DNA of 64,000 bases from Escherichia coli (lineage in GTDB: Bacteria > Pseudomonadota > Gammaproteobacteria > Enterobacterales > Enterobacteriaceae). The first letter of the stretch is position 1; the number at the start of each line of letters is the position of its first letter. Where the stretch lies: NCBI RefSeq assembly GCF_030013595.1, contig NZ_CP122768.1, one strand, 5' to 3'. The notes under the pieces were generated by a model. The model searched no databases. It was not told the origin of the DNA and worked only from the letters and a program-made list of their open reading frames with translations. The position numbers and the translations under genes are program-made. Shown in pieces: positions 2,196-34,431 of this stretch.

Positions 2196-2711
2196 ATGTC
2201 CATCCGTTTTGCCCGCAAAGCCGACTGTGCTGCCATTGCGGAAATTTATAACCACGCCGTGTTGTATACGGCGGCTATCTGGAATGACCAAACGGTGGAT
2301 GCAGATAACCGCATTGCCTGGTTCGAAGCGCGGACTTTAGCTGGTTATCCGGTGCTGGTGAGTGAACAAGATGGCGTAGTGACGGGATATGCCTCGTTTG
2401 GCGACTGGCGTAGTTTCGATGGTTTTCGCCATACCGTGGAACATTCGGTTTATGTCCATCCCGATCATCAGGGCAAAGGTCTGGGGCGTAAATTGTTAAG
2501 CCGATTGATTGATGAAGCGCGGGATTGCGGGAAGCATGTCATGGTCGCCGGGATCGAATCGCAAAACCAGGCTTCGCTGCATCTCCACCAGTCGCTGGGA
2601 TTTGTCGTCACCGCGCAAATGCCGCAGGTAGGCACTAAATTTGGGCGCTGGCTGGATCTGACATTTATGCAGTTGCAACTCGACGAACGCAGTGAACCGG
2701 ACGCAATCTGA
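2196..2711 (+). CDS. mnaT: GNAT L-amino acid N-acyltransferase MnaT (YncA)
   Basis: 171 aa ORF, GNAT acetyl-CoA binding motif QGKGLGRKLL; conserved position next to curA. Confidence 0.85.
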   Translation: MSIRFARKADCAAIAEIYNHAVLYTAAIWNDQTVDADNRIAWFEARTLAGYPVLVSEQDGVVTGYASFGDWRSFDGFRHTVEHSVYVHPDHQGKGLGRKLLSRLIDEARDCGKHVMVAGIESQNQASLHLHQSLGFVVTAQMPQVGTKFGRWLDLTFMQLQLDERSEPDAI

Positions 2712-3160
2712 TGAATCAGTCGCTTACCCTTGCCTTTTTGATTGCCGCCGGGATTGGTCTGGTAGTCCAAAACACGCTGATGGTGCGCATCACTCAGATC
2801 TCCTCAACCATTCTCATCGCCATGTTGCTGAACTCTTTGGTAGGAATTGTGCTGTTCGTTTCTATTTTATGGTTTAAACAAGGCATGGCGGGGTTTGGCG
2901 AACTGGTGTCCAGCGTGCGCTGGTGGACACTTATACCTGGCTTGCTGGGATCGTTTTTTGTCTTCGCCAGTATCAGCGGATATCAGAATGTGGGAGCGGC
3001 GACAACTATTGCGGTACTGGTCGCCAGCCAGCTGATTGGCGGTCTGGTGCTGGATATCTTCCGCAGCCATGGCGTACCACTACGGGCGTTGATCGGCCCA
3101 ATTTGTGGCGCAATTTTACTTGTGGTTGGTGCCTGGCTGGTGGCCAGGCGCACATTTTAA
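2711..3160 (+). CDS. ydcZ: inner membrane protein YdcZ (DMT-like, multi-TM)
   Basis: 149 aa hydrophobic ORF, start overlaps mnaT stop (ATGA). Confidence 0.8.
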   Translation: MNQSLTLAFLIAAGIGLVVQNTLMVRITQISSTILIAMLLNSLVGIVLFVSILWFKQGMAGFGELVSSVRWWTLIPGLLGSFFVFASISGYQNVGAATTIAVLVASQLIGGLVLDIFRSHGVPLRALIGPICGAILLVVGAWLVARRTF

Positions 3161-23200: not shown

Positions 23201-24026
23201 CGTTTGAATGTAGATCCATCTGGCGTACTTGTTTACGTACTTTCAGGAATGAATCAACGTTAATGTTTTCAATTGGTACAGATAAGCCATATTTTTCATT
23301 TGTTAGGTAGTGGAAAATCTGGTCCACGCCGTTAGTGCTAGCCTCAATAGCATTAGTTTCAAGGTTACGAATCTTTAAGCCCATAACATCGACTGCTACC
23401 TGGCTATTTGGCTGGAGAATATCAACACCAGCAGCAAGAGATTTGTCATCACGACGTAACACAATACACATGGTTGCAATACCATTGCCTTTGTAGTTGT
23501 CGTTCCAGTCTGATCCTAAATGACGTTTTGCCAGTGACAAAGCGGTGTTAGGATTCTTACCCGTGCGAAACTCAACTTCTAAAACTTTCCGGTATTCTTC
23601 TTTAATGTTGCCTTTGTCCAGTACACCATCACGGATCGTCATGTTCTTACCAACAAGAACATTTTTGTTATCGATAAACAGTGCTTTGTAATGGTCGATT
23701 TCACCCTCGGCAATTGCGAAGATTTGCACTAACTTATTGTTTTCTTGCTTAGAAATTGCTTTGTAAACGCAGATTGCACCCGTGCGGGTAGTACCAAAAA
23801 GAACGGGTAATACTGTCTTCGGATCGTTTGATGTTCCTAGTGTCACCGCATTATCTGGGCTTTGTACTTTCGGTGTTTTTGGTGCGCCTACAGTGGAAGC
23901 GATCAAGGTCATTGCACCAGCAGCCATACCGATAGCGACTGCGGTCATAACCGAAAATGTTGCGGCTGCCGCCATCCCCGCCGAAGCACCAGCAATAACC
24001 GCGCCTACCAATACTTCAAATCCCAT
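20250..24026 (-). CDS. central tail fiber / host-specificity (J-like) protein
   Basis: 1258 aa; hydrophobic N-terminus, large beta-rich body and C-terminal Ser/Thr-rich fiber region; positioned after the distal tail genes. Confidence 0.65.
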   Translation of the reverse strand: MGFEVLVGAVIAGASAGMAAAATFSVMTAVAIGMAAGAMTLIASTVGAPKTPKVQSPDNAVTLGTSNDPKTVLPVLFGTTRTGAICVYKAISKQENNKLVQIFAIAEGEIDHYKALFIDNKNVLVGKNMTIRDGVLDKGNIKEEYRKVLEVEFRTGKNPNTALSLAKRHLGSDWNDNYKGNGIATMCIVLRRDDKSLAAGVDILQPNSQVAVDVMGLKIRNLETNAIEASTNGVDQIFHYLTNEKYGLSVPIENINVDSFLKVRKQVRQMDLHSNGACDPNASFKENLTNLMQTFGGVMFESFGRITLKLDAPDIVKHTFNEDNIMMGKVSLKTGGTNGYFNTINAMYQEPSIDYSEQMLRYPADAENDATIRQDGRIIAKDIEYRFVKSKDQIDKLASIERNKSRITQVISFMTTDAFTAEVWDVISVTYDELKLNNSLWRITAIDRSIDSGIAGMMTITATEYNSQVYTDLNYAATPDNRPSGLPDSMTVQKPTNFRIKATGETIYGKNVTLTWDAPEDFNRYGFQIDYRVSGSPNWIKLGQTSQQIFSVNALAKDRSYDYRVCAFGIIARSEWVELINQNPTVTYELPTPVIRIKNQGSTPGTFEGNDLIIEWENQQQLDVEINGETNKFSDLFEAYIIKVTNKAGKSIQYRTRDPESWTYTLDMNQFNGLSRQLTVEVSAKGYNNSESAPARLVAINPQHKPMKGFSARGGFNSVFVSWADDVEHDYAGSIIQYATDNTFSDARAVSTNSVSHTSFDIADGDYYIRGAHYDIFGMDDAVWSEPYFMQMRSTISWDDQDKEALEDLIGLQDRLDETIADAIAQAGANADAKIDAMHKQITTETGQTVQASANTLKSLIATSEQASSTKIDQVKAELKGDIKSEVSASATTLKQAIATSEAASASKIDQVRVEMDGKIAGVNQEADVKIDALKGTINSKYNLAVNADGRVAGIHMSATNDPAQPTRIIFNADKIAVAPQNGSEVCPFGIEGNKVYLDSAMIRNASIGSAQITDASITTAKIGNAAINSAKIQDGAITNAKIVNGAIDNAKIGNYIQSSDWNGSTGWHINKNGSATFMNATVKGNITADSGTLNNVTINSSCVIKGMLEATQVKGDFVKVIGRKFPHRDVNVDNGYAGYPQGTVTVRVEDDHKFDRQIVIPAVSFGGLRAREGSNNNTYYDTCRLIVRKNGSELYNRAYGGNTGLYSGVIDMPAGKGAVTLTFEVQSSAINNWTPSTWISDLTVMVTKKATTGITVS

Positions 24027-24445
24027 TATTCACCCCCGAATCTATAAACTTGTTCATAGTCAATGTCTGAAACAGGAATGGTCATCCAGATACCATCTTC
24101 TTCAACGAGGCCATAACCGGAATAATGAGGAACTACGGAATAATAATTACGGTTTCCTAATTTGTGGGCTGTGACCAGTAAGTCGCCGTCCTGTAAATCA
24201 TCAGTGACTAATTTGAAATGTTTCTTAATTGGTTGAAGGATATTTGAATACCCGCTTAATTCTTTGCAGATTTTCAAACCTTCTTCTTTAGTTGAATATT
24301 TTTTATAAAGAGAATTATATAGGTCAGTACCAGCGAGAATATCGATGATCTTACATGCAATTAGATTGCAATCATTCTCACCCTGAACGAACTCCTGACC
24401 TATTAAAGAATTGATGTAATCGGTGATAAGCCTAGTTTTTAGCAT
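24026..24445 (-). CDS. tail assembly protein (I/K-like candidate)
   Basis: ORF 24026..24601 trimmed to the internal ATG with GGAGG RBS (MLKTRL...) to remove overlap with the upstream gene. Confidence 0.4.
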   Translation of the reverse strand: MLKTRLITDYINSLIGQEFVQGENDCNLIACKIIDILAGTDLYNSLYKKYSTKEEGLKICKELSGYSNILQPIKKHFKLVTDDLQDGDLLVTAHKLGNRNYYSVVPHYSGYGLVEEDGIWMTIPVSDIDYEQVYRFGGE

Positions 24446-24491
24446 GTTGAATACCTCCATGCTGTTATTTACTAGGCTTAGGGAGAAGGGA

Positions 24492-25145
24492 TTATTTCTT
24501 CGATGAATGCCACTTGCTTTCGCTATTCCACTTCCCGGCTCGGGAGAAGAATAGATCGTTCTCGTTTCCGGCATAGGAACGGTGGATACCATCGGAGGCA
24601 TGACTACGAGCGTTTTTATCTAGAACTTCCCAGATACTATTAAGCTGAAATTCTGATTCGTTTTTACACTCATCATCTTCATGTTCGATGTTAATCCCGA
24701 TGGAATCGACTACCCCACGGAAAACAGGGTAAGTAGTTTCAACCTTGCCCGTGTTGGGGTTAAGGAAAACCATCTCGATTTTCACATCAGATTTATCGAA
24801 TTGCTTGTTTCGAATTAGGGTAATGTATTCTTCGCGAACGTTAGAAACGGTTACGTTAATCCCGTTGTTGTTGATCTCCTTCTCTTCGGTATTCGATGAG
24901 ATTTGAAGAAAATCACCCGTTGCGAGATACGTAAATCCGTTATAGTCCAAATCGAAATACCCATCTGTAAGCCGTAGAACGTCCCCTGACGCTGTTATCA
25001 CTTCGATAATGTGAAACATCGATCCAGTGGAAAAAAGCTGCGGTAGCGTCAATCTAGACACGTTCTGACCTGTCTGGTCGTTGTAGACCTCGATGAAGTC
25101 CAGATTAGTGCATAGTTTGCTGAATGATTCTTGAATAGTTGCCAT
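24492..25145 (-). CDS. minor tail protein
   Basis: 217 aa, start abuts stop of the upstream gene, tail module context. Confidence 0.45.
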   Translation of the reverse strand: MATIQESFSKLCTNLDFIEVYNDQTGQNVSRLTLPQLFSTGSMFHIIEVITASGDVLRLTDGYFDLDYNGFTYLATGDFLQISSNTEEKEINNNGINVTVSNVREEYITLIRNKQFDKSDVKIEMVFLNPNTGKVETTYPVFRGVVDSIGINIEHEDDECKNESEFQLNSIWEVLDKNARSHASDGIHRSYAGNENDLFFSRAGKWNSESKWHSSKK

Positions 25146-25756: not shown

Positions 25757-28111
25757 TTACATCTTACGGCGTTGTGCGTCTTCTACCGCCTGAGCAACTA
25801 ACTTAGCGTGACGTTTGATAGCATCCATGACCATCTTGTCTGAGCTATTAACGTTGCCGTTAATGTTCAAAGGCGCATTAACTTCAATCGGTTGAGAGTT
25901 GCCACCGCCTGATTTTTGAGCAGCAAGGAAGTCTTTCAAATCACCGTTAGTACGCTGATCAACTACTCGTTCACCCTTATCAAGCAACCATGTACCCTCA
26001 CGAGGGATGTTATCAATACCATCATGAGCCATACCGCTAACGTTAGTAGACTTGATGTTGGCGATGCTCCCCATGTTCTGAGAAACAGCCAATGCAGCAG
26101 CCGCGATTTTTTGACCTGTGGTTACGTTGGTCGGATCGTTCCATGCATCGGTAGCAGCCGTCCACATGTTCACCGTCGCTTGTCCAATAGAGAATGCTTT
26201 ATGAGCAGTGAAAGCCATCTGCATAGCTTTAGTGTTTTCCTGCCCGAAGAGAGTCATTGCAGCAGCAAAACCGCCATACATATCATCAGCTATTGACTGA
26301 CGAGCATCAGCATATTTCTTCTCAATTGCAGCCATTCGTTTTTGATGGTTTTCATTGAGTTTTTCTAATTCTTCCATCCGTTTAGCCGGATCGGTGATCC
26401 CATCAATCTTGATTTTACCGGTCTTATAATCTTGTTCCGCTTCCGATTTCTCTTTATCGATTGCATTAAATTTAGCAAACGGATCATTTGGATCTTGATA
26501 GTCTAAGCTATTGGTCAACTGATTGGTTTTAAAACCATCCATTCCATGCAAAGAATCTTCAATCTGTGAATAACTTTGCTCGGTATCATTCACACGACGC
26601 ATATATTCTTCGTAGGAGATAGCTTTACCATCAAGTAACCGTTTATGGCTTTCTAACTCGTTGTCCCTGATTTGTTGCAAAACTGTTAAGGCATTCAAAG
26701 CATCAACCGGATCAGCACCCAGCATCATTTTATAGATGTTTTCTGCGTTCTGGTCTAACAGTTGCTGACGTTTAGCGGCTGCGTCTTGCTGTGAGATTAA
26801 GCCCAGATCTAAAGCAGTGTCCAAATCTTTCAAGCTGGCTTCTAACTGCTTGTTTTGAGAAGCAATAGACGCGGCTGTCTGTCCTTGCAATTTAACATCA
26901 AGAGCATTCAGTCGCTTGATTGCATCCTCGCGTGCTTTCTGTGCTTTTTCTGCGGCTTCCTTAGCCTTTTTAGCTGCCTCTTCCGCTTTCTTCTTGGCTT
27001 CTTCTTGTTCTTTTTTTGTTGGACCAGTGACGCCTCCACCTTGACCCGTTGGGGTAAATCCAGTATCCGATTTATTTCCAGTGATAGTAATTACCGGATC
27101 GCCGTTTTTATCACGGGTAACTCCTTCACTATCCACCCAACGATCAGGATAATTTGGTTTATTGTTGAAGCTGGCTTGTCCACCTGCTAGACCAGTAGAA
27201 CTATAACCATGCTTGTTAATAAAACCACCGTTAGCCATAGCCATATTCTGGCGAGCTTTTTCAAACCTTTCATTAAACGTCTTTAATGCGTTGAATAAAG
27301 CGGTCTTTTCCCAATCTTTATCAAACCAGTTGTATAACTTGTTCATCCCTTCAACAACTGGATTTAGCGCATTTGCTGCCATACCCTTTAAGTTATCGGT
27401 AAGGGTATCCATATTTTTAGAGAATTTATTATATTCTTCGGCTGTATCATTGGTGATTTTAACAGTTTGCTGATTAATGGCGTTTACAGCTTCCTGATAA
27501 GATCCGTATTTCTGCAATTCATCAGCCATATGACTTGAATCACTGGCTAACGATTCCATCATAAACTTAACATCAGCGATAGACGCACCAGCCTTGCGCA
27601 TATCATAGAAGACCTTGATTGCCGCTTTCATCCCGCCTTGTGGATCGTTCATAAACTCGGCATAATCTTTAATCTTCAAACCTACACTTTCTAGGTCGTC
27701 TTCAATACCGCCACCGTTACGCCATGCATCAGCCAGTTTATCTAAGGTGTCTTTGTTAATATCACCAAATTTCTCAACGGTTAAGCCAGTGCCAGAGAAT
27801 TGCTTCTCTAATTTCTGGAGTGTTTCGACGGTTAAACCAGTTGCTTTTGAAACTTCGCTGTATTCCTTTACATAATCACCGATGGCATTTGCAGCAGAGA
27901 CAGCACCAGCAGCCAGACCAACAAAACCACCAGCAGCCAAAGCAAGCGATCCACCAGTTCCGCGAAGGGTTCCACTTAAACTAGATAAACCACCAGACAA
28001 ATCAAGATTCATTGCCCTTTCTGAAAGGTTATCAAGCATGTCAATCGCTTGGTTGGTACTTCTCCTTAGACCGTCGTTATTCCCTTCTATTGTTACTATA
28101 TGTCTTGTCAT
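25757..28111 (-). CDS. tail tape measure protein
   Basis: 784 aa, long alpha-helical/coiled-coil regions, Gly-rich segments, lysine/glutamate-rich stretch; canonical position after the chaperone pair. Confidence 0.75.
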   Translation of the reverse strand: MTRHIVTIEGNNDGLRRSTNQAIDMLDNLSERAMNLDLSGGLSSLSGTLRGTGGSLALAAGGFVGLAAGAVSAANAIGDYVKEYSEVSKATGLTVETLQKLEKQFSGTGLTVEKFGDINKDTLDKLADAWRNGGGIEDDLESVGLKIKDYAEFMNDPQGGMKAAIKVFYDMRKAGASIADVKFMMESLASDSSHMADELQKYGSYQEAVNAINQQTVKITNDTAEEYNKFSKNMDTLTDNLKGMAANALNPVVEGMNKLYNWFDKDWEKTALFNALKTFNERFEKARQNMAMANGGFINKHGYSSTGLAGGQASFNNKPNYPDRWVDSEGVTRDKNGDPVITITGNKSDTGFTPTGQGGGVTGPTKKEQEEAKKKAEEAAKKAKEAAEKAQKAREDAIKRLNALDVKLQGQTAASIASQNKQLEASLKDLDTALDLGLISQQDAAAKRQQLLDQNAENIYKMMLGADPVDALNALTVLQQIRDNELESHKRLLDGKAISYEEYMRRVNDTEQSYSQIEDSLHGMDGFKTNQLTNSLDYQDPNDPFAKFNAIDKEKSEAEQDYKTGKIKIDGITDPAKRMEELEKLNENHQKRMAAIEKKYADARQSIADDMYGGFAAAMTLFGQENTKAMQMAFTAHKAFSIGQATVNMWTAATDAWNDPTNVTTGQKIAAAALAVSQNMGSIANIKSTNVSGMAHDGIDNIPREGTWLLDKGERVVDQRTNGDLKDFLAAQKSGGGNSQPIEVNAPLNINGNVNSSDKMVMDAIKRHAKLVAQAVEDAQRRKM

Positions 28112-28114
28112 AAA

Positions 28115-28465
28115 TTACCCCGTTTGTGCGCTTCTGAGTTTCTCAAGCAAAGATGGATCGAACATGTTCAGCATTGCCGCTTTACGTTCTTCTTCTTTCT
28201 TGCGTGCAATTTCTTCCAGTTCTTCTTTAGTTTTAAAGAGTTTTTCTTCTCTAATTAATTGGAATTGGCTAGGCTTGAGTTTGCGTGCAGTTTCGCGAGT
28301 CATTCCTTGTGACGTCATATACATGGAATATTGCAACATCGCATTCTGCATATCATGAAACGCGGGGCTTTGTGGTTCTAAGTAGGTGTCGAAAATGTAT
28401 AATTTCCAAAACAGAGTGATTGGCATATTATCCATTTCATCTTTACTAAGCCCCGATCGCATCAT
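28115..28465 (-). CDS. tail assembly chaperone, T-like ORF (probably expressed as frameshift fusion)
   Basis: 116 aa frame immediately upstream of the tape measure gene; its frame is open back to the stop of the preceding ORF. Confidence 0.5.
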   Translation of the reverse strand: MMRSGLSKDEMDNMPITLFWKLYIFDTYLEPQSPAFHDMQNAMLQYSMYMTSQGMTRETARKLKPSQFQLIREEKLFKTKEELEEIARKKEEERKAAMLNMFDPSLLEKLRSAQTG

Positions 28466-28494
28466 TTGCCGGAAATAGAAATTCAGAAGCGGGT

Positions 28495-28803
28495 TTACTT
28501 TACCTCGTTTTCAATTACTGCCGGATCTTGCATCAATGACGCTTGAGCAACCAAACCGATTAATTCACTACGGACGTTAGTATACAGTGCCTTAACTTGT
28601 TCCATAGATTCAAATACTGGTTTACCGTCTTCATCTTCAATACAACGAAGAATAGAACGTTCATCACGGTCTTCTTTATCAGTATTGAAAACATGTTCGT
28701 TAAATTCTTTTACTGACATAGGGCGAGCATAGAACGTGAATCCGCCGATGGTCAGAGATTCACGTTTCGGAGAAAGAGCTTTCAGCATTTCATTAATATT
28801 CAT
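28495..28803 (-). CDS. tail assembly chaperone, G-like ORF
   Basis: 102 aa; ends ...EVK with codons GTA AAG TAA where the -1 frame is open. Confidence 0.5.
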   Translation of the reverse strand: MNINEMLKALSPKRESLTIGGFTFYARPMSVKEFNEHVFNTDKEDRDERSILRCIEDEDGKPVFESMEQVKALYTNVRSELIGLVAQASLMQDPAVIENEVK

Positions 28804-28845: not shown

Positions 28846-29352
28846 TTAAGAGATTTTCAAAGTCTGCTTAGTGCCAGTCTTCTTAATGTTGGTAAGGAAA
28901 GCAGCCGGAGGATTGCTTAACCAGTAATAATGAAAACCACTTTGCATACTGTTATAAGGAACAGTGACAGCAGCACCACCCAAATTAACGGTTATATTCC
29001 CCGCTCTACCGTTCTGGAGATATACAGCCATAGTAGGAGTACCACCATTGAATTGACCAACGATAACGCCAATCAGACGCCCTACGCCCACGTTTTCGGG
29101 GTTCTCCATAGATCCTTTACCGCGCATGTCAGTTACTGGATAGTTTGAAGCAGTTACACCCCAGTTATTACCCAATGAAGTAGACCACGCAGCAGTAGCT
29201 ACAACCGTATCCATACCACGACCACACATCGCGCTCATATTACCAGGTACACCAACTTTTAACGCTTGCATAGCCTCACGCATCCATCTCTTGCCAGTTA
29301 CAGAAACAGCCGATGATCCGACCCAGCCGGGCTTATTAACGACATTTGCCAT
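28846..29352 (-). CDS. hypothetical tail protein
   Basis: 168 aa, RBS GGAG before the ATG, tail module context. Confidence 0.45.
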   Translation of the reverse strand: MANVVNKPGWVGSSAVSVTGKRWMREAMQALKVGVPGNMSAMCGRGMDTVVATAAWSTSLGNNWGVTASNYPVTDMRGKGSMENPENVGVGRLIGVIVGQFNGGTPTMAVYLQNGRAGNITVNLGGAAVTVPYNSMQSGFHYYWLSNPPAAFLTNIKKTGTKQTLKIS

Positions 29353-29365
29353 TTTTATTACTCCA

Positions 29366-29397
29366 ATAAAAAAGCCCCACCATTAAGGCAGGGCTTA
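29366..29397 (-). terminator. rho-independent terminator (copy 1 of a triplicated element)
   Basis: minus strand AAGCCCTGCC-TTAAT-GGTGGGGCTT followed by TTTTTT. Confidence 0.5.
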
Positions 29398-29526: not shown

Positions 29527-30003
29527 TCATCCGGCAGTATTGAAGATTTCCTGTTTCAGCGGTTTGCCGTCCACTGCAAAGGTAAACTCTTTAGTTACCA
29601 CTTCTTCATCGCCACCGTTCATAGCAACTTTAGAAATAAAGCCGTTGAAAGCGGTGCGAATACCAGTCTGTTTTCCGGCGTCAACATAATACTCTATTTT
29701 GATTTGTACTCTTGTGCCGTCTTCGGCAGCTTTGATCAATTTTTCGTGGACACTATCCCCGGGGATGTAATTCACCGTAAGAGTCAGATCAGGAACATTC
29801 AGTTTACCTACTAGTTTACGGTTATACTGAGAAGAGAAGGATTTAACTTCTACAGTACCGCGCTCGATACCAGTTTCAGGAAAACCAGCACACTCTTTAA
29901 TTTCTTCATAGCCCTCATGGTTGAGAGTGGTGTTAGTGGTATCGGCGTGATAGAACAGACTTACCAGACCACCAGTAAAAATATCTTTAAATTGCTGAGA
30001 CAT
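29527..30003 (-). CDS. putative major tail (tube) protein
   Basis: 158 aa, followed by a strong terminator as expected for an abundant structural protein; assignment by size and context only. Confidence 0.45.
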   Translation of the reverse strand: MSQQFKDIFTGGLVSLFYHADTTNTTLNHEGYEEIKECAGFPETGIERGTVEVKSFSSQYNRKLVGKLNVPDLTLTVNYIPGDSVHEKLIKAAEDGTRVQIKIEYYVDAGKQTGIRTAFNGFISKVAMNGGDEEVVTKEFTFAVDGKPLKQEIFNTAG

Positions 30004-30058: not shown

Positions 30059-33000
30059 TTATTTAGTTGCTTTGAGTTCGGCAATTTCTTTCTGTAATGC
30101 TTCGATCTGGGCTTTATATTTGGCGTCCATTTCCTGAATAGCTTTAATAATCAAGGCATTAACAGCGGAGTTAGAAATAGTCTTAATTGCTTCTGGATTT
30201 TCTGGATCTTCGGTGGATTGAATACCTACTGCTTCCGGCAACACTTCTTCCAGATCCTGAGCAATAATACCTACTTCGCGTTTAATCACTGTGTCATCAG
30301 AAAGAGATTTAACTTTATCGTAGGTGTAGACTTTCAGGGAGTTTACTTTCTCTAATGCGCCGTCCTGTAATTCTTCCTTGTTGATTTTAAGGCGAGCATC
30401 AGAACGAATGTACACATCGTTAAAGCTACCGTTTCTGGATGCGCTTAAATCACCAGCCGCGTTAAAGTCAAACGTTGCATCGTGTACGTGCATACGCACC
30501 ATAGCATTTCCGATAGTACCGCTAGGAACATGTACACCCATTGCTGCGATATGATATTTACCTTGATGGGTTGCTTTCCATACGTTATGAGCGGAATCGG
30601 TTGATTGTTGACAGTCGACCTGAATACCAGAAGCACGATCACGCCAGCTAGTCCAACTACCACCAGCAACGCTACCACGAATAAGACCATTACCGCCACC
30701 GGATACAGTGCCCGTTTCAAGGTGAATCATCTTACCGCCGAATTTCCAGACTTCGGTTTGTTTCTCACCACGGAAGCGAATAACACCAGCGTCATCGCAA
30801 TACATCAAGCCCAACTCTAAACCGTTTGGATCTCTAAACCAGATGTGCTTATTGCCAGCGCGTTTAAACGTAATATCAGCACCAGTTGTTGTGATATTGC
30901 TAGCAACGTTTAGACTACCCGCCATAGAGAACAGAATAGGTCCAGTGCCACCCTGAGTACGTTCAGTATACCAGTGATAACTTGTAGCATCCTTACATTC
31001 AAAAACCTGTTTGCGTTGCTCGTTACCCCATGTATGGAGACTAAATTGCGAAGAAGAACCACGGTTAGCATCAAATGCAATTTCACCAGATTCTACACGT
31101 ACAAAGCCTCTAAAACGTGTTGTTATGTTACCAGTACCCATAGCACGTTCAGTGATAAAATGTGCGCCCTGACTGTCTTCAATCTGTAGGATGTTATCGC
31201 GACCGTTATTGCTATCGCCCCAATGGTTAAACCGGAAGTAATCGCGGGAATTTAATCGCCCAGCGTCGAAAGTCAAATGCCCTTTCTTAATGTAAACGTC
31301 ATTACTAAAGCGAGCGGCTTTGCTTGCACGTTCTAAGACTAATGCACCTTCGTTACCATCACCACCCAAAGTAACATTACCGCTACCAAGATGGTAAATG
31401 AACGGACGATAGCCGTTCCAACTACCAAGTTTATCATTTTCGGCAGTAGACAGAAGATATACGTTTTGACCATCATTACGCCAGAATGCACCATAATTAC
31501 CGTAGATCATGCGGTAAGCGTCGCTATTCATTGAGATGAATTGAGCGTTAGTATAAACTCGTTTTGTGTTACCGGTTGCAAGTTCGATCTGTCCGTCTAT
31601 GTGGTGACGAATAGAAGTACCACCTACATCACTATACCATTCAAAAACGTTAGTATCAGCATTACCATAACCGATCCACCCTTGACGGGTAATAGATCCA
31701 GTCCGATTATCTTGAAACGTAATATGGTTGGATTGACCAGCAGGACGCCGCAAGGTAATAACATTACTACCGCCACCCAACATCATTCGACCAGAAAGAA
31801 TATTACCTTTATGAGTCCCAGCAATAGAGCTACTAGATTCAACGGTTAGAATCTCCTGAGCATCTGTACTACCCGTGGCGAGTCGATAAGTAGAACCCTG
31901 AACCGTCTCATGCCAGATCATTTCATTATAGTTACTGCGGAATTTACGAATATATTTCCGACCAGTACCCCTATCATTACTCAAGTGAACAATATCATAA
32001 CTATTTTGTGTGTTATCGTCAAAACTCAACACACCTCGTTTGTTTTCGGTGTTGAAAAGAGTAATGATGCGCCCATCAATAACACCAACAGAAGGTTTAA
32101 TTAACGTGGCTTCCGGTGTATCGTGAACAGTCAGATTAACATAAACACTTTTACCAAATTCAACAATAACGTTATCAGTGTAACGCTGATATTTCACATA
32201 AATGTCATAGTTATCACCGGATGTATTGACGGCAAATACATCAAAATCTTTGACGGTATTTCGACGATATGCAACTACGTTAAGTCCTTTAGGTCTATCG
32301 TTACCACTACGGAGAAGAATTTCTACTACATCAACTTGGTCATATGCCGTAACGTTGTAACCATTACCACCATGAATACGGAAAAACACACTACGCCCGT
32401 TTTGTGGAATTGTTGCGGTTGCCAATTTGAAATATGCAGATACGTTTTCGCTAGAATTGGGAACAGACATAACGACGTTTTTAACAAACATCTTATCAAC
32501 TTCGGCTTTGGTGTATGCACCAATCTCGCCAGGAGTCGGCTTATCACCTTCGTGATACATCTTATAGCTAAAGTTCTTCTGTCCTTCTCTATCAAAACCA
32601 TAGGTTTCAACACGAGATCCACCAGACGCATAACGGAAAGTAAATCCGCGACCGTGAGCTTTACCGGCAGAGTGAGGAACGTTAAGAGTTAGATCCATGA
32701 GTCCATCTTGACCATTGGTACGGAAAGCACCAAAGTAGTTAAGATCTCTCGCTGTCTGGTCTTCCAAATAGTTAGCTGTTTTGGTTAACAGATACCCGCC
32801 ATGCTTAGTGTTGGTATTCTTCTTGATGTAAAGAGCATCGTTACTACCTTCAATACCATCAATTCGACGGTTAGCGGCTGCGATCGCTGAATCAGTATCA
32901 GTTTTGTTTTTGTCAACCTTTGCGTTAATAGCGGTATGGTTGCTATTCACCGTCCCTGTAAGGTTACTGATTTTAGTATCAACATCTTTCTTGTTGTCGG

Positions 33001-33520
33001 AAACGACCTTTTCAATCGCTGTTTTGTTAGCTGCAACCGTGCTAGTTAAGCTAGAAATTTTGTTATCTGCATCGGTTTTATTTGCAGTAACAGTTTTAGT
33101 CAAGTTGCTAACGTTGGTGTTAGTGGTATTAACTTTGTTGTTAATCGCGGTGTTATTGTCATTAACCGTCGTGGTTAAAGCTGCGATTTTATTGTCCGCA
33201 TCTCGTTTATTATTTGCTACAGTAGTTTCTATAGCTGATTTGTTAGATGCAACTGTCCCCGTAAGGTTATTGATCTTAGTATCAGCATCGGTTTTATTTG
33301 CCGCGATAGTCGCATCAGTAGTTTTCTTGTTATTGTCTACTTTTGTGTTTAAAGCATTATGACTTTCAGGAGAAACACTTACTTGAACTACTGCGTTATT
33401 TTTATCTTTGGTATAAATTACATGGTCTGCCATCTGAATAGCGATTTCACCGACCTGTAATTGTTCCGGCGTTGGCTTTTTACCAGCCGTCTGTGTGCGT
33501 TTAAATTGGATCGACTGCAT
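30059..33520 (-). CDS. side tail fiber with tandem repeats and C-terminal intramolecular chaperone (S74-like) domain
   Basis: 1153 aa; conserved fiber N-terminus (KPTPEQLQVGEIAI...YTKD), about five 28-29 aa repeats (ANKTDADTKINNLTGTV...), C-terminal DVYIRSDARLK ... GIIAQDLEEVLPEAV chaperone signature. Confidence 0.75.
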   Translation of the reverse strand: MQSIQFKRTQTAGKKPTPEQLQVGEIAIQMADHVIYTKDKNNAVVQVSVSPESHNALNTKVDNNKKTTDATIAANKTDADTKINNLTGTVASNKSAIETTVANNKRDADNKIAALTTTVNDNNTAINNKVNTTNTNVSNLTKTVTANKTDADNKISSLTSTVAANKTAIEKVVSDNKKDVDTKISNLTGTVNSNHTAINAKVDKNKTDTDSAIAAANRRIDGIEGSNDALYIKKNTNTKHGGYLLTKTANYLEDQTARDLNYFGAFRTNGQDGLMDLTLNVPHSAGKAHGRGFTFRYASGGSRVETYGFDREGQKNFSYKMYHEGDKPTPGEIGAYTKAEVDKMFVKNVVMSVPNSSENVSAYFKLATATIPQNGRSVFFRIHGGNGYNVTAYDQVDVVEILLRSGNDRPKGLNVVAYRRNTVKDFDVFAVNTSGDNYDIYVKYQRYTDNVIVEFGKSVYVNLTVHDTPEATLIKPSVGVIDGRIITLFNTENKRGVLSFDDNTQNSYDIVHLSNDRGTGRKYIRKFRSNYNEMIWHETVQGSTYRLATGSTDAQEILTVESSSSIAGTHKGNILSGRMMLGGGSNVITLRRPAGQSNHITFQDNRTGSITRQGWIGYGNADTNVFEWYSDVGGTSIRHHIDGQIELATGNTKRVYTNAQFISMNSDAYRMIYGNYGAFWRNDGQNVYLLSTAENDKLGSWNGYRPFIYHLGSGNVTLGGDGNEGALVLERASKAARFSNDVYIKKGHLTFDAGRLNSRDYFRFNHWGDSNNGRDNILQIEDSQGAHFITERAMGTGNITTRFRGFVRVESGEIAFDANRGSSSQFSLHTWGNEQRKQVFECKDATSYHWYTERTQGGTGPILFSMAGSLNVASNITTTGADITFKRAGNKHIWFRDPNGLELGLMYCDDAGVIRFRGEKQTEVWKFGGKMIHLETGTVSGGGNGLIRGSVAGGSWTSWRDRASGIQVDCQQSTDSAHNVWKATHQGKYHIAAMGVHVPSGTIGNAMVRMHVHDATFDFNAAGDLSASRNGSFNDVYIRSDARLKINKEELQDGALEKVNSLKVYTYDKVKSLSDDTVIKREVGIIAQDLEEVLPEAVGIQSTEDPENPEAIKTISNSAVNALIIKAIQEMDAKYKAQIEALQKEIAELKATK

Positions 33521-33597: not shown

Positions 33598-34431
33598 TTA
33601 ATACTCACCGAAATCGATCCGGTCCGTCTTAGCCACTGCGCCAATTTCGGCTGGCGTAGGCTTCTCGTTTGTTGTATAGACTTTAATCCATTCCGATTTT
33701 CCGTTGTCCTGAATATTTCGTACCCGCAAACGTGGAGCACCGGAAGTATTACACGTTAATTGCCATGCGCCATGCTCATTAGCTTGAAGATGAATTAACG
33801 ATGTATCAGCACCATAAGGGTTAGTGCTAGCCGTTCCTTTGTAGGTTACAAAGCGGTTTCCTGTCAGAGATTCACTATCAATAGGTCCGGTGAATGGGCT
33901 AACGCCTGAGCCTACGCCAAAATCCCCTTGTCGGATGAGTTTTCCCTCGGTCGCTATACCCCTTGCTAGAATCCCGCCATCTGGTTCAAGTTTAAATTCC
34001 AGTGTTACAGCTTTGTTATCACTACCACGGGTTTTATGTGATGTGACGTAAGCATCGAATATACAAAAGTACCCTGTGTTAGCAGCACTATAGCCAGAGT
34101 TCACAACATAGAACATACGGAAGCGTAAAGGTGTTTTATCCTCTACCGCTTTCATCAACATTGCTTGATGTTCGTCATCCAGAACACGGTTTAACGTGAG
34201 TGTCGTCGGTTCCAGTCTACGATAACCAGCAAGTTTCCCCGTAGCGTCCTGATCGTACTCTTCCAGAGTTTCAATCTCTGTGGATTCTGTTAGCGTAGGG
34301 AATGCTGCGACGTTCTCAATAGAACTAAAGCTAGGATCGAAAAAGTCGACCTGATTGTCTAGCTGGTTAGAGATCGACACTTCAACATGCGATCCCGTAA
34401 AAATATCTAAGTTATCTTGTGTAATATTCAT
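33598..34431 (-). CDS. hypothetical structural protein
   Basis: 277 aa; C-terminal EKPTPAEIGAV motif echoes the fiber N-terminus. Confidence 0.4.
   Translation of the reverse strand: MNITQDNLDIFTGSHVEVSISNQLDNQVDFFDPSFSSIENVAAFPTLTESTEIETLEEYDQDATGKLAGYRRLEPTTLTLNRVLDDEHQAMLMKAVEDKTPLRFRMFYVVNSGYSAANTGYFCIFDAYVTSHKTRGSDNKAVTLEFKLEPDGGILARGIATEGKLIRQGDFGVGSGVSPFTGPIDSESLTGNRFVTYKGTASTNPYGADTSLIHLQANEHGAWQLTCNTSGAPRLRVRNIQDNGKSEWIKVYTTNEKPTPAEIGAVAKTDRIDFGEY

What the first reader, a model, noticed from the sequence alone, without database searches (positions are those of the whole stretch)
28466..28503. Probable -1 programmed frameshift joining the two chaperone ORFs upstream of the tape measure gene
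The ORF at 28495..28803 ends ...GTA AAG TAA. The -1 frame is open from this point and runs into the 28115..28465 ORF, whose annotated ATG lies 30 nt downstream. Slippage of Lys-tRNA from AAG to AAA at the stop would give a G-GT type fusion, a conserved feature of long-tailed phages. The slip site is not a canonical X-XXY-YYZ heptamer, so the exact mechanism is uncertain.
Basis: partly seen in the sequence, partly recalled or inferred. Interest (0 to 1): 0.4.

Follow-up and report, generated by a model that had tools for sequence, protein, structure and literature searches.

The report
Unannotated tail-chaperone frameshift in E. coli prophage
Two small genes upstream of the tape-measure gene of an E. 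coli prophage are very probably joined by the well-known -1 ribosomal frameshift that makes the G and GT tail-assembly chaperones. The slip site is a short, non-canonical GTA_AAG next to the stop codon, and databases miss it.

Summary
On the minus strand, a 102-codon ORF (28803..28495) ends GAG GTA AAG TAA. The -1 frame opens at 28510 and runs 131 codons to a stop at 28115, just before the 784-aa tape-measure gene.

The interpretation (a lambda G/GT-type -1 programmed frameshift on tRNA-Lys, AAG to AAA) is well supported by comparison, but no protein data exist.
- In about 70 related prophage loci, GGTAAAGTAAACCC is invariant within the close clade. One lineage has GTA_AAA.
- The 29-nt "spacer" before the annotated ATG evolves as -1-frame coding sequence: 9 synonymous versus 5 non-synonymous states, against 1/11 and 2/8 in the other frames. 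One 3-nt insertion keeps the frame.
- Distant relatives (23-56% identity; Klebsiella, Enterobacter, Serratia and others) all keep the -1 layout, with an NNA_AAG site in the short overlap.
- Four lineages have no start codon before the conserved T-segment motif.
- ATG 28465 has no Shine-Dalgarno sequence.
- None of 80 homologues among 1.84 billion representatives is a single-ORF fusion.
- The modelled fusion (pLDDT 94) matches the HK97 tail assembly chaperone best.

No stimulatory RNA structure was found, so efficiency is unknown. This is a new member of a known kind. RefSeq annotates two separate proteins and often names the first "cytochrome".

The parts
28495..28803 (-). G ORF: tail assembly chaperone, 102 aa, the product of normal translation. 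It has a strong SD-like AAGAGGA upstream of its ATG.
   Evidence: phrog_344 'tail assembly chaperone' E 2.3e-7. Pfam Phage_TAC_13 E 1.8e-4, below the gathering score. Fold match to HK97 TAC 2ob9.
28498..28504 (-). Proposed shift site G_GTA_AAG. tRNA-Lys re-pairs from AAG (28500..28498) to AAA (28501..28499). The functional core is A_AAG, inside the hexanucleotide GTA_AAG.
   Evidence: Invariant in the close clade. GTA_AAA in L037. NNA_AAG in all distant relatives. Enrichment test.
28495..28497 (-). 0-frame TAA stop of G, directly after the slip codon. It may act as a slow-to-decode A-site ('shifty stop').
   Evidence: The stop lies 0-1 codons after the A_AAG in 11 of 13 lineages and 10-11 codons after it in 2.
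28511..28513 (-). TGA in the -1 frame. It is the upstream limit of the 16-nt window in which a productive shift can occur.
28466..28494 (-). The 'spacer' between the G stop and the annotated ATG. It has no start codon in the -1 frame and can be translated only after a frameshift (encodes NPLLNFYFRQ).
   Evidence: 14 variable columns, 9 of them at -1-frame third positions. Synonymous/non-synonymous states are 9/5 in the -1 frame versus 1/11 and 2/8 in the other frames. A 3-nt insertion in L017/L054 keeps the frame.
28115..28498 (-). T segment: the -1-frame extension of 127 codons plus stop (VNPLL...SAQTG*). With G residues 1-102 it gives a predicted 229-aa GT fusion.
   Evidence: Weak Pfam Phage_tail_T match (E 1.1e-3; 5 of 12 family members). 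AlphaFold2 model of the fusion has pLDDT 93.9.
28463..28465 (-). ATG used by gene callers as the start of a separate 116-aa ORF. No Shine-Dalgarno-like sequence precedes it (tttctatttccggcaaATG).
   Evidence: Database entries for this ORF have inconsistent lengths of 75-116 aa. The Met is absent at this position in L074, L075, L080 and DCP80.
25757..28111 (-). Tape measure protein gene (784 aa), immediately downstream of T.
   Evidence: phrog_13674 E 9e-70.
29527..30003 (-). Tail tube (major tail) protein gene, upstream of the chaperone pair.
   Evidence: phrog_158 E 7e-22. Phage_TTP_11/12. RefSeq names it 'phage tail tube protein' in relatives.

Best explanation
This is the tail-assembly-chaperone pair of a siphovirus-like E. 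coli prophage, expressed like lambda G/GT.

Most ribosomes translate ORF1 and stop at TAA 28497..28495, giving the 102-aa G chaperone. A small fraction slip back one nucleotide on GTA_AAG. The single E. coli tRNA-Lys (mnm5s2UUU) leaves AAG and re-pairs with the overlapping AAA. These ribosomes then read GTA AAC CCG ... in the -1 frame to the stop at 28115, giving a 229-aa GT fusion (...NEVK-VNPLLNFYFRQMMRSGL...).

By analogy with lambda (inference), the G parts coat the tape-measure protein, and the rarer T part recruits the tail tube protein.

The slip can occur in two ways that give the same protein. tRNA-Lys may slip from the A site during translocation, the NNA_AAG 'hexanucleotide' mode in which the P-site tRNA-Val does not need to re-pair. 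Or it may slip from the P site while the UAA stop waits for release factor.

Shown here: the sequence anatomy, family-wide conservation of the layout and site, coding constraint on the spacer, the lack of an independent start signal, and the TAC fold of G. Inferred: the slip itself, its efficiency, and the roles of G and T.
For: **Anatomy and position**
- Sequence anatomy.
- Position between the tail tube and tape-measure genes.

**Conservation of the site and layout**
- G_GTA_AAG TAA ACC C is invariant in about 70 close loci even where flanks diverge. One lineage has GTA_AAA, still a Lys slip.
- Thirteen lineages down to 23% identity all keep the -1 layout with a closed +1 frame.
- Their sites are G_GAA_AAG, A_GAA_AAG, A_GTA_AAG, T_TTA_AAG (DCP80) and A_AAA_AAG.
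- The more distant Vibrio phage henriette 12B8, identified only through a tape-measure match, has A_AAA_AAC in the same arrangement.
- A_AAR sites are about 12-fold enriched in the overlap windows.

**The spacer is translated and has no start of its own**
- The spacer evolves as -1-frame coding sequence, and an in-frame 3-nt indel is tolerated.
- The conserved motif F.YR..(L/M)R.GL lies upstream of, or in place of, any start codon in L074, L075, L080 and DCP80.
- There is no SD before ATG 28465, whereas most genes of the module have one.
- Among 80 homologues in 1.84e9 representatives, every hit is G-only or T-only. T-only entries start at variable positions.

**Protein family**
- The AlphaFold2 model of the fusion has pLDDT 93.9 across the junction.
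- The best PDB hit is the HK97 tail assembly chaperone. The best viral hit is a 279-aa tail assembly chaperone of Arthrobacter phage Kitkat aligned over the whole model; from its length it is probably a joined G-T product.

**Literature**
- NNA_AAG and A_AAG -1 frameshifting is established in E. coli, and is used by IS1222 (PMC5009743; PMC4066793).
Against: - There is no protein-level evidence.
- The heptamer is non-canonical: tRNA-Val cannot re-pair well on GGU.
- In reporter assays A_AAG alone was barely above background (about 0.15%) and needed a pseudoknot to reach 5.6% (PMC4066793).
- No conserved downstream structure was found. The window folds less stably than shuffles (z = +1.87). No conserved upstream SD-like element was seen by eye in the aligned junction sequences.
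- The window clade has two in-frame ATGs 30 nt after the stop, so some T-only product by termination-reinitiation cannot be excluded.
- Matches to Pfam Phage_TAC_13 and Phage_tail_T are below the gathering scores, and hhalign against lambda GT gives only E = 0.13.
Confidence: 0.85

Rival explanations
1. There are two independent proteins. ORF2 is translated on its own from ATG 28465 or 28462, either by weak de novo initiation or by termination-reinitiation of ribosomes that have just released G at TAA 28495. No fusion is made or needed.
For: - Two in-frame ATGs lie 30 and 33 nt after the stop.
- RefSeq/PGAP annotates two separate CDSs.
- A_AAG without a stimulator is a weak shifter in reporters (PMC4066793).
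Against: - No SD precedes the ATG.
- The 29 nt upstream of the ATG are under -1-frame coding constraint.
- The encoded segment F.YR..(L/M)R.GL is conserved in relatives that have no ATG/GTG/TTG before it (L074, L075, L080, DCP80).
- Gene callers pick inconsistent starts, giving 75-116 aa.
- The slip site is conserved beyond what the G protein sequence would require.
Confidence: 0.08
2. The fusion is made by a shift elsewhere or by another mechanism: the T_GAA_AAC site three codons upstream (tRNA-Asn AAC to AAA), or transcriptional slippage of RNA polymerase.
For: GAA AAC (28512..28507) lies inside the 16-nt shift window. The distant relative L083 has an A7 run that could in principle support transcriptional slippage.
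Against: - The GAA_AAC site is absent from L037, L038, L025 and all distant relatives, while A_AAG (A_AAA in L037) is present in every lineage.
- A_AAC was not among the tetramers above background in E. coli (PMC4066793).
- The window has only three consecutive A residues at the site. That is well short of the long homopolymer runs on which transcriptional slippage is described (my own knowledge).
Confidence: 0.04
3. The frame break is a degraded prophage gene or a sequencing error in what was once a single G-T gene.
For: The element is a prophage, and prophages often decay.
Against: - The identical frame arrangement is found in about 70 independent assemblies and in 13 diverged lineages from several genera.
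- No single-frame fusion exists among 80 homologues.
- Both halves are under purifying selection.
Confidence: 0.02

Closest known systems
Bacteriophage lambda gpG / gpGT (-1 frameshift at G_GGA_AAG; Levin 1993; Xu, Hendrix & Duda 2004, 2013, 2014, as cited in PMC5009743)
   Same: - Two ORFs sit between the major tail gene and the tape-measure gene.
- The second ORF is in the -1 frame, with no start signal of its own.
- The slip occurs on tRNA-Lys at A_AAG near the end of G (lambda site read).
- No stimulatory RNA structure was detected here, and by my recollection none is required in lambda.
- The G part has a TAC fold, and the T part has a weak Phage_tail_T match.
   Different: - The P-site codon is GTA rather than GGA, so the heptamer is not X_XXY_YYZ.
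- The stop follows the slip codon directly, whereas it lies 5 codons later in lambda.
- Sequence similarity to lambda G and T is marginal (hhalign E 0.13).
- A gp38-like adhesin ORF sits between the tube gene and G.
NNA_AAG hexanucleotide / Z_ZZN tetranucleotide -1 frameshift sites (IS1222 G_CGA_AAG; Bacillus subtilis cdd A_CGA_AAG; Licznar et al. 2003 and Sharma et al. 2014, via PMC5009743 and PMC4066793)
   Same: Only tRNA-Lys can re-pair (AAG to AAA). The 5' codon ends in A and its tRNA does not re-pair cognately. The host has a single tRNA-Lys. GUA is read by a cmo5U34 tRNA-Val with broad wobble (my own knowledge), the property reported to favour this kind of shift.
   Different: The described cases rely on a downstream pseudoknot or hairpin, or on an upstream SD-like element. 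None was detected here. The only candidate helper is the abutting UAA stop.
HK97 tail assembly chaperone (PDB 2ob9)
   Same: Best structural match of the G domain: Foldseek probability 1.00, TM 0.63 normalised to the 104-residue target.
   Different: Sequence identity is only 18-20% and the Foldseek E-value is 6.6e-3. The profile search of PDB sequences found nothing.
Escherichia phage DCP80 (PQ671644) hypothetical proteins XNX25182/XNX25183
   Same: It is the only isolated-phage relative of the T segment among 50,697 records. It has the same G / -1 T / TMP layout, and the aligned junction Lys is the same column.
   Different: It uses a canonical T_TTA_AAG heptamer 10 codons before the G stop. 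Identity is 33%. The frameshift is not annotated there either.

Membership tests
Phage tail assembly chaperone G/GT programmed frameshift (lambda paradigm) | A pair of small ORFs located between the major tail (tube) gene and the tape-measure gene. | tested here: met
   Tube 30003..29527, G 28803..28495, T to 28115, TMP 28111..25757. One extra gp38-like ORF (29352..28846) lies between the tube gene and G.
Phage tail assembly chaperone G/GT programmed frameshift (lambda paradigm) | The second ORF is in the -1 (or +1) frame, overlaps the 3' end of the first, and lacks its own translation start signal. | tested here: met
   The -1 frame is open from 28510, giving a 16-nt overlap. No SD precedes ATG 28465. 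Four relatives have no start codon before the conserved motif.
Phage tail assembly chaperone G/GT programmed frameshift (lambda paradigm) | A canonical X_XXY_YYZ slippery heptamer in the overlap. | tested here: not met
   G_GTA_AAG. Canonical heptamers occur only in the relatives DCP80 (T_TTA_AAG), L083 (A_AAA_AAG) and Vibrio henriette (A_AAA_AAC).
Phage tail assembly chaperone G/GT programmed frameshift (lambda paradigm) | The frame arrangement and a shift-prone site are conserved among diverged relatives. | tested here: met
   No single-frame fusion among 80 homologues.
Phage tail assembly chaperone G/GT programmed frameshift (lambda paradigm) | The upstream product belongs to a TAC family by sequence or fold. 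| tested here: met
   phrog_344 E 2.3e-7. Phage_TAC_13 hits in 10 of 12 family members, best E 1e-5; the window's own score is below the gathering score. Foldseek top hit is HK97 TAC 2ob9. Some relatives are named 'phage tail assembly chaperone family protein, TAC' by NCBI.
Phage tail assembly chaperone G/GT programmed frameshift (lambda paradigm) | The downstream segment is homologous to lambda gpT (Pfam PF06223). | tested here: inconclusive
   E 1.1e-3, 19.8 bits against a gathering score of 25.9. Five of 12 members match. hhalign against lambda GT gives E 0.13.
Phage tail assembly chaperone G/GT programmed frameshift (lambda paradigm) | Both G and a minor GT fusion protein are made, and both are needed for tail assembly. 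| not testable with these tools
   Needs mass spectrometry or western blot, and genetics.
NNA_AAG hexanucleotide / A_AAG tetranucleotide -1 frameshift sites | A 0-frame codon ending in A followed by AAG, so that tRNA-Lys can re-pair on AAA. | tested here: met
   GTA_AAG at 28503..28498. NNA_AAG is present in 12 of 13 lineages and GTA_AAA in one.
NNA_AAG hexanucleotide / A_AAG tetranucleotide -1 frameshift sites | The host decodes AAA and AAG with a single tRNA-Lys (mnm5s2U34). | tested here: met
   The host is E. coli, shown by exact protein matches and matches in E. coli genomes. The single tRNA-Lys of E. coli is stated in PMC5009743.
NNA_AAG hexanucleotide / A_AAG tetranucleotide -1 frameshift sites | A flanking stimulator: a downstream hairpin or pseudoknot, or an SD-like element 10-14 nt upstream. 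| tested here: not met
   RNAalifold finds no consensus structure in 13 lineages and only -2.8 kcal/mol with no covariation in the close clade. The single-sequence fold is weaker than shuffles. The GAGG next to the site is not conserved. The adjacent stop codon is the only candidate, and it is untested.

The most novel reading that the evidence does not exclude
A whole family of Enterobacterales prophage tail chaperones (E. coli, Klebsiella, Enterobacter, Serratia, Citrobacter, Raoultella) may set its G:GT ratio with a minimal signal. That signal would be an NNA_AAG hexanucleotide without P-site re-pairing and without any RNA structure, helped by a 0-frame stop placed 0-1 codons after the slip codon. 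This would be a '-1 shifty stop', a natural, structure-free design not described for tail chaperones. It could explain why heptamer-based finders and PGAP miss these genes.
Probability: 0.25. Interest if true: 0.45.

Novelty: new member of a known kind. Interest (0 to 1): 0.3.

Why it matters
**Biology.** This is the expected solution for a long-tailed phage, so it adds no new principle.

**Annotation.**
- The element occurs in about 1% of complete E. coli genomes (52 of 5426), and relatives occur in several other Enterobacterales genera.
- RefSeq lists two unrelated 'hypothetical' CDSs with arbitrary starts for the second.
- RefSeq also frequently names the chaperone 'cytochrome', and that name has propagated to Klebsiella, Enterobacter, Serratia and Raoultella.
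- Recognising the joined product would correct hundreds of records.

**Mechanism.** The family is a compact natural series of NNA_AAG sites (GTA, GAA, TTA, AAA; stop adjacent or not). It could be used to measure how much P-site identity and an abutting stop codon contribute to low-level -1 frameshifting without RNA structure.

Tried and rejected
- **Megablast of the region against 50,697 phage records:** no match. The element is known only as a prophage, plus one distant record, DCP80.
- **Word-indexed homologue search with the fusion protein:** no hit at E <= 1e-3. I used the exact cluster look-up and the exhaustive representative search instead.
- **Sequence and profile searches of PDB chains:** nothing significant. 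Only the fold search found the HK97 TAC.
- **Profile comparison with the lambda GT fusion:** E 0.13, too weak to claim homology of T.
- **NCBIfam:** no family for G or GT.
- **Downstream stimulatory RNA structure:** none. RNAalifold found nothing on 13 lineages or on the close clade, and the single-sequence fold has z = +1.87. A possible CCCG/CGGG long-range pairing seen by eye was not supported.
- **Upstream SD-like stimulator:** GAGG abuts the site in the window but is replaced by TCGG, CTGG or ACAG in relatives. Rejected as a conserved element.
- **Alternative site T_GAA_AAC:** not conserved.
- **+1 frameshift:** the +1 frame closes after 9-21 codons in nearly all relatives checked (54 in L079), and in none does it reach the T sequence.
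- **Transcriptional slippage:** the A run is only 3 nt.
- **Licznar et al. 2003 (EMBO J):** could not be read. Its conclusions are cited only through the review PMC5009743.

Full report
**1. What is in the sequence**

The genes of this region lie on the minus strand.
- ORF1 runs 28803..28495 (102 aa) and is preceded by a good Shine-Dalgarno-like AAGAGGA.
- It ends ...ATT GAA AAC GAG GTA AAG TAA, with AAG at 28500..28498 and TAA at 28497..28495.
- The -1 frame has a TGA at 28513..28511 and is open from 28510 for 131 codons, to a TAA at 28117..28115.
- Four bases further on, the ATG of a 784-aa ORF begins (28111).
- The ORF finder lists the -1 ORF only from ATG 28465. That ATG is 30 positions after the stop.

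One refinement: any productive shift must occur within only 16 nt (28510..28495).

**2. Context**

The window is E. coli chromosome carrying a siphovirus-like prophage.
- ORF1, ORF2, the 784-aa protein and the neighbouring 168-aa protein all occur as exact sequences in E. coli records.
- The 1-kb region is found in 52 of 5426 complete E. coli genomes, always chromosomal.
- The 784-aa ORF is a tape-measure protein (phrog_13674, E 9e-70).
- ORF 30003..29527 is a lambda-like tail tube protein.
- Terminase, portal, a fused head/protease protein, a distal tail protein and a 1258-aa tip protein complete a standard structural module.
- ORF1 matches the 'tail assembly chaperone' phrog_344 (E 2.3e-7) and, below threshold, Pfam Phage_TAC_13.

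The pair thus sits where lambda G and T sit.

**3. Comparative evidence that the -1 frame is entered from ORF1**

*Close relatives.* I collected about 70 loci from IMG/VR and E. coli genomes.
- GGTAAAGTAAACCC is invariant even in the 74-84%-identical lineages whose flanking codons differ (GAA TCG GTA AAG TAA).
- One lineage (L037) has GTA AAA TAA. This is synonymous in G, still a Lys slip site, and changes Val to Ile in the -1 frame.
- One lineage has a 3-nt insertion just after the site. It adds a Val in the -1 frame and keeps the frame (L017/L054).

*The spacer.* In the stretch between the stop and the ATG:

| Measure | -1 frame | 0 frame | +1 frame |
|---|---|---|---|
| Synonymous / non-synonymous codon states | 9 / 5 | 1 / 11 | 2 / 8 |

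Fourteen columns vary, and 9 of them are at -1-frame third positions. No ATG, GTG or TTG occurs in that frame between the TGA and the ATG in the window. Translation of this conserved stretch therefore requires a frameshift.

*Distant relatives.* These are 23-56% identical. Their G proteins occur in Klebsiella, Enterobacter, Serratia, Citrobacter and Raoultella. All have the same -1 arrangement, and in none does the +1 frame reach the T sequence. Each short overlap contains an NNA_AAG site.

| Site | Lineages | Codons between site and G stop |
|---|---|---|
| G_GTA_AAG | window, L025, L038, L039 | 0 |
| G_GTA_AAA | L037 | 0 |
| G_GAA_AAG | L074, L075, L079 | 1 |
| G_GAA_AAG | L076 | 0 |
| A_GAA_AAG | L080 | 1 |
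| A_GTA_AAG | L078 | 11 |
| T_TTA_AAG | phage DCP80 | 10 |
| A_AAA_AAG | L083 | 0 |

- The more distant Vibrio phage henriette 12B8 has A_AAA_AAC directly before its stop.
- A_AAR sites make up 15 of 93 codons in the overlap windows, against 17 of 1247 elsewhere in the G ORFs.
- In the protein alignment of the predicted fusions, the slip Lys of DCP80 falls in the same column as that of the window clade. In the GAA_AAG lineages it lies two residues upstream.
- A conserved motif F.YR..(L/M)R.GL follows the junction.
- In L074, L075, L080 and DCP80 there is no start codon of any kind before that motif.

*No natural fusion.* An exhaustive profile search of 1.84 billion representative proteins found 80 homologues. 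Every one is G-only (about 100 aa) or T-only (about 86-130 aa, with varying N-termini). None is a single-frame fusion.

*No start signal.* Most genes of the structural module have a G-rich SD 5-10 nt before the start. ATG 28465 has none (tttctatttccggcaaATG). Database entries for ORF2 have lengths of 75, 78, 100, 108, 112, 113 and 116 aa, which suggests there is no clear start for gene callers to find.

**4. Protein-level plausibility**

- An AlphaFold2 model of the 229-aa fusion was built from a 61-row alignment of G-only, T-only and reconstructed fusion sequences. Mean pLDDT is 93.9, and blocks spanning the junction score 93-95.
- The best PDB match is 'bacteriophage HK97 tail assembly chaperone' (2ob9: probability 1.00, E 6.6e-3, TM 0.63 over the whole target).
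- The best match among predicted viral structures is a 279-aa tail assembly chaperone of Arthrobacter phage Kitkat, aligned over the whole model (E 1.2e-4). Many further TAC entries follow.
- The T part gives a weak match to Pfam Phage_tail_T, the lambda gpT family: E 1.1e-3, below the gathering score, in 5 of 12 family members. hhalign against a reconstructed lambda GT gives E 0.13. I treat homology of T to lambda T as unproven.

**5. Mechanism**

*Which site.* The only conserved shift-prone element is A_AAG. The heptamer G_GTA_AAG is not X_XXY_YYZ, because tRNA-Val reading GUA cannot re-pair cognately with GGU.

*What is known about such sites.* They are an established class.
- The minimal -1 site is a Z_ZZN tetranucleotide.
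- A_AAG is the most efficient such tetramer in E. coli.
- NNA_AAG hexanucleotides are used by IS1222 (G_CGA_AAG) and shift incidentally in B. subtilis cdd (A_CGA_AAG).
- Efficiency is higher when the tRNA reading the 5' codon has a high wobble propensity.
- These four points are from PMC5009743 and PMC4066793.
- E. coli has a single tRNA-Lys for AAA and AAG (PMC5009743).
- GUA is read by the cmo5U34 tRNA-Val (my own knowledge), which would fit the wobble rule.

*What the site lacks.* In reporter constructs A_AAG alone was near background (about 0.15%) and reached 5.6% only with the IS3 pseudoknot (PMC4066793). I found no stimulator here.
- RNAalifold finds no consensus structure in 13 lineages.
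- In the close clade it finds only -2.8 kcal/mol and no covariation.
- The window's own fold is weaker than shuffled controls (z = +1.87).
- The GAGG abutting the site is not conserved.

*The stop codon.* What recurs is a 0-frame stop 0-1 codons after the Lys codon, in 11 of 13 lineages. I therefore propose, as an inference, that slow decoding of UAA lets P-site tRNA-Lys slip ('shifty stop'). This would act in addition to, or instead of, the A-site hexanucleotide route. Both routes give the same protein. The two lineages with the stop 10-11 codons away (one of them with a canonical heptamer) show the stop is not indispensable for the family.

*Efficiency.* A low efficiency would be adequate. 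In lambda the G:GT ratio is about 30:1 (PMC5009743).

**6. Rivals**

- *Independent initiation or termination-reinitiation at ATG 28465.* This is possible as a side reaction in the window clade. It cannot explain the coding constraint upstream of the ATG, nor the relatives without a start codon.
- *The alternative site T_GAA_AAC.* It is not conserved, and A_AAC is not a productive tetramer in E. coli (PMC4066793).
- *Transcriptional slippage.* It is unlikely on three A residues.
- *Pseudogene or sequencing error.* It is excluded by the identical arrangement in many assemblies and genera.

**7. Comparison with what is known, and verdict**

It works like lambda G/GT and passes the positional, frame, conservation and fold tests for that system. 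It fails only the canonical-heptamer criterion, where it instead fits the NNA_AAG class, but without that class's usual RNA stimulator.

It is a new, unannotated member of a known kind.
- RefSeq shows two separate CDSs.
- RefSeq often calls the chaperone 'cytochrome'.
- The only isolated-phage relative, DCP80, is also unannotated.

The interest is mainly annotational. A modest mechanistic point is the structure-free NNA_AAG site with an adjacent stop.

My confidence that a GT fusion is made by a -1 shift at this Lys codon is 0.85. The exact route, A-site or P-site/stop-assisted, is open.

Noticed in passing
window 29372..29396 (minus strand): A strong intrinsic-terminator-like hairpin (10-bp stem, 6 GC pairs, T-run) lies between the tail tube gene (stop at 29527) and the next ORF. 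G, T and the tape-measure gene therefore lie downstream of a possible partial terminator, which would lower their expression relative to the tube protein.
   Followed up: no
window 28846..29352 (minus strand): A 168-aa ORF with a T4 Gp38-type adhesin N-terminal domain (Pfam Gp38_N E 3.5e-15; phrog_1121 'tail fiber adhesin') is inserted between the tail tube gene and the chaperone pair. This is an unusual place for a receptor-binding accessory gene. Some relatives (L038) lack it.
   Followed up: partly
window 30059..33520 and 33598..34431 (minus strand): A 1153-aa tail fibre gene (Gp34 trimerisation domain plus Peptidase_S74 intramolecular chaperone) lies upstream of the tail tube gene. It is itself preceded by a second, 277-aa major-tail-like protein (phrog_158). 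The fibre gene thus sits in the middle of the tail shaft genes, between two tube-like paralogues.
   Followed up: no
ORF1, window 28495..28803; relatives: The tail assembly chaperone is named 'cytochrome' in many NCBI and UniRef records of E. coli, Klebsiella, Enterobacter, Serratia, Citrobacter and Raoultella. It has no cytochrome-like family match, so this is probably a propagated misannotation. Newer records of some relatives say 'phage tail assembly chaperone family protein, TAC'.
   Followed up: partly
L001 (Escherichia phage DCP80, PQ671644, 11215-20374): GenBank classifies this 141-kb record under Straboviridae/Tevenvirinae (T4-like myoviruses). Yet it carries a siphovirus-type tube, G / -1 T and tape-measure module related to this prophage, with a canonical T_TTA_AAG site. 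Either the taxonomy or the assembly of that record is doubtful.
   Followed up: no
window 24492..24601 (minus strand): The ORFs 25145..24492 and 24601..24026 overlap by 110 nt in different frames as listed by the ORF finder, and the ATG at 24601 has no SD. The true start of the downstream gene is probably further in. An alternative reading involving recoding was not examined.
   Followed up: no
L002 (Vibrio phage henriette 12B8, NC_021073, locus 2292..3154): The two 'hypothetical proteins' upstream of its tape-measure gene show the same architecture. A canonical A_AAA_AAC sits immediately before the TAA of the first ORF, followed by a 164-codon -1 frame. The frameshift is not annotated there either.
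   Followed up: partly
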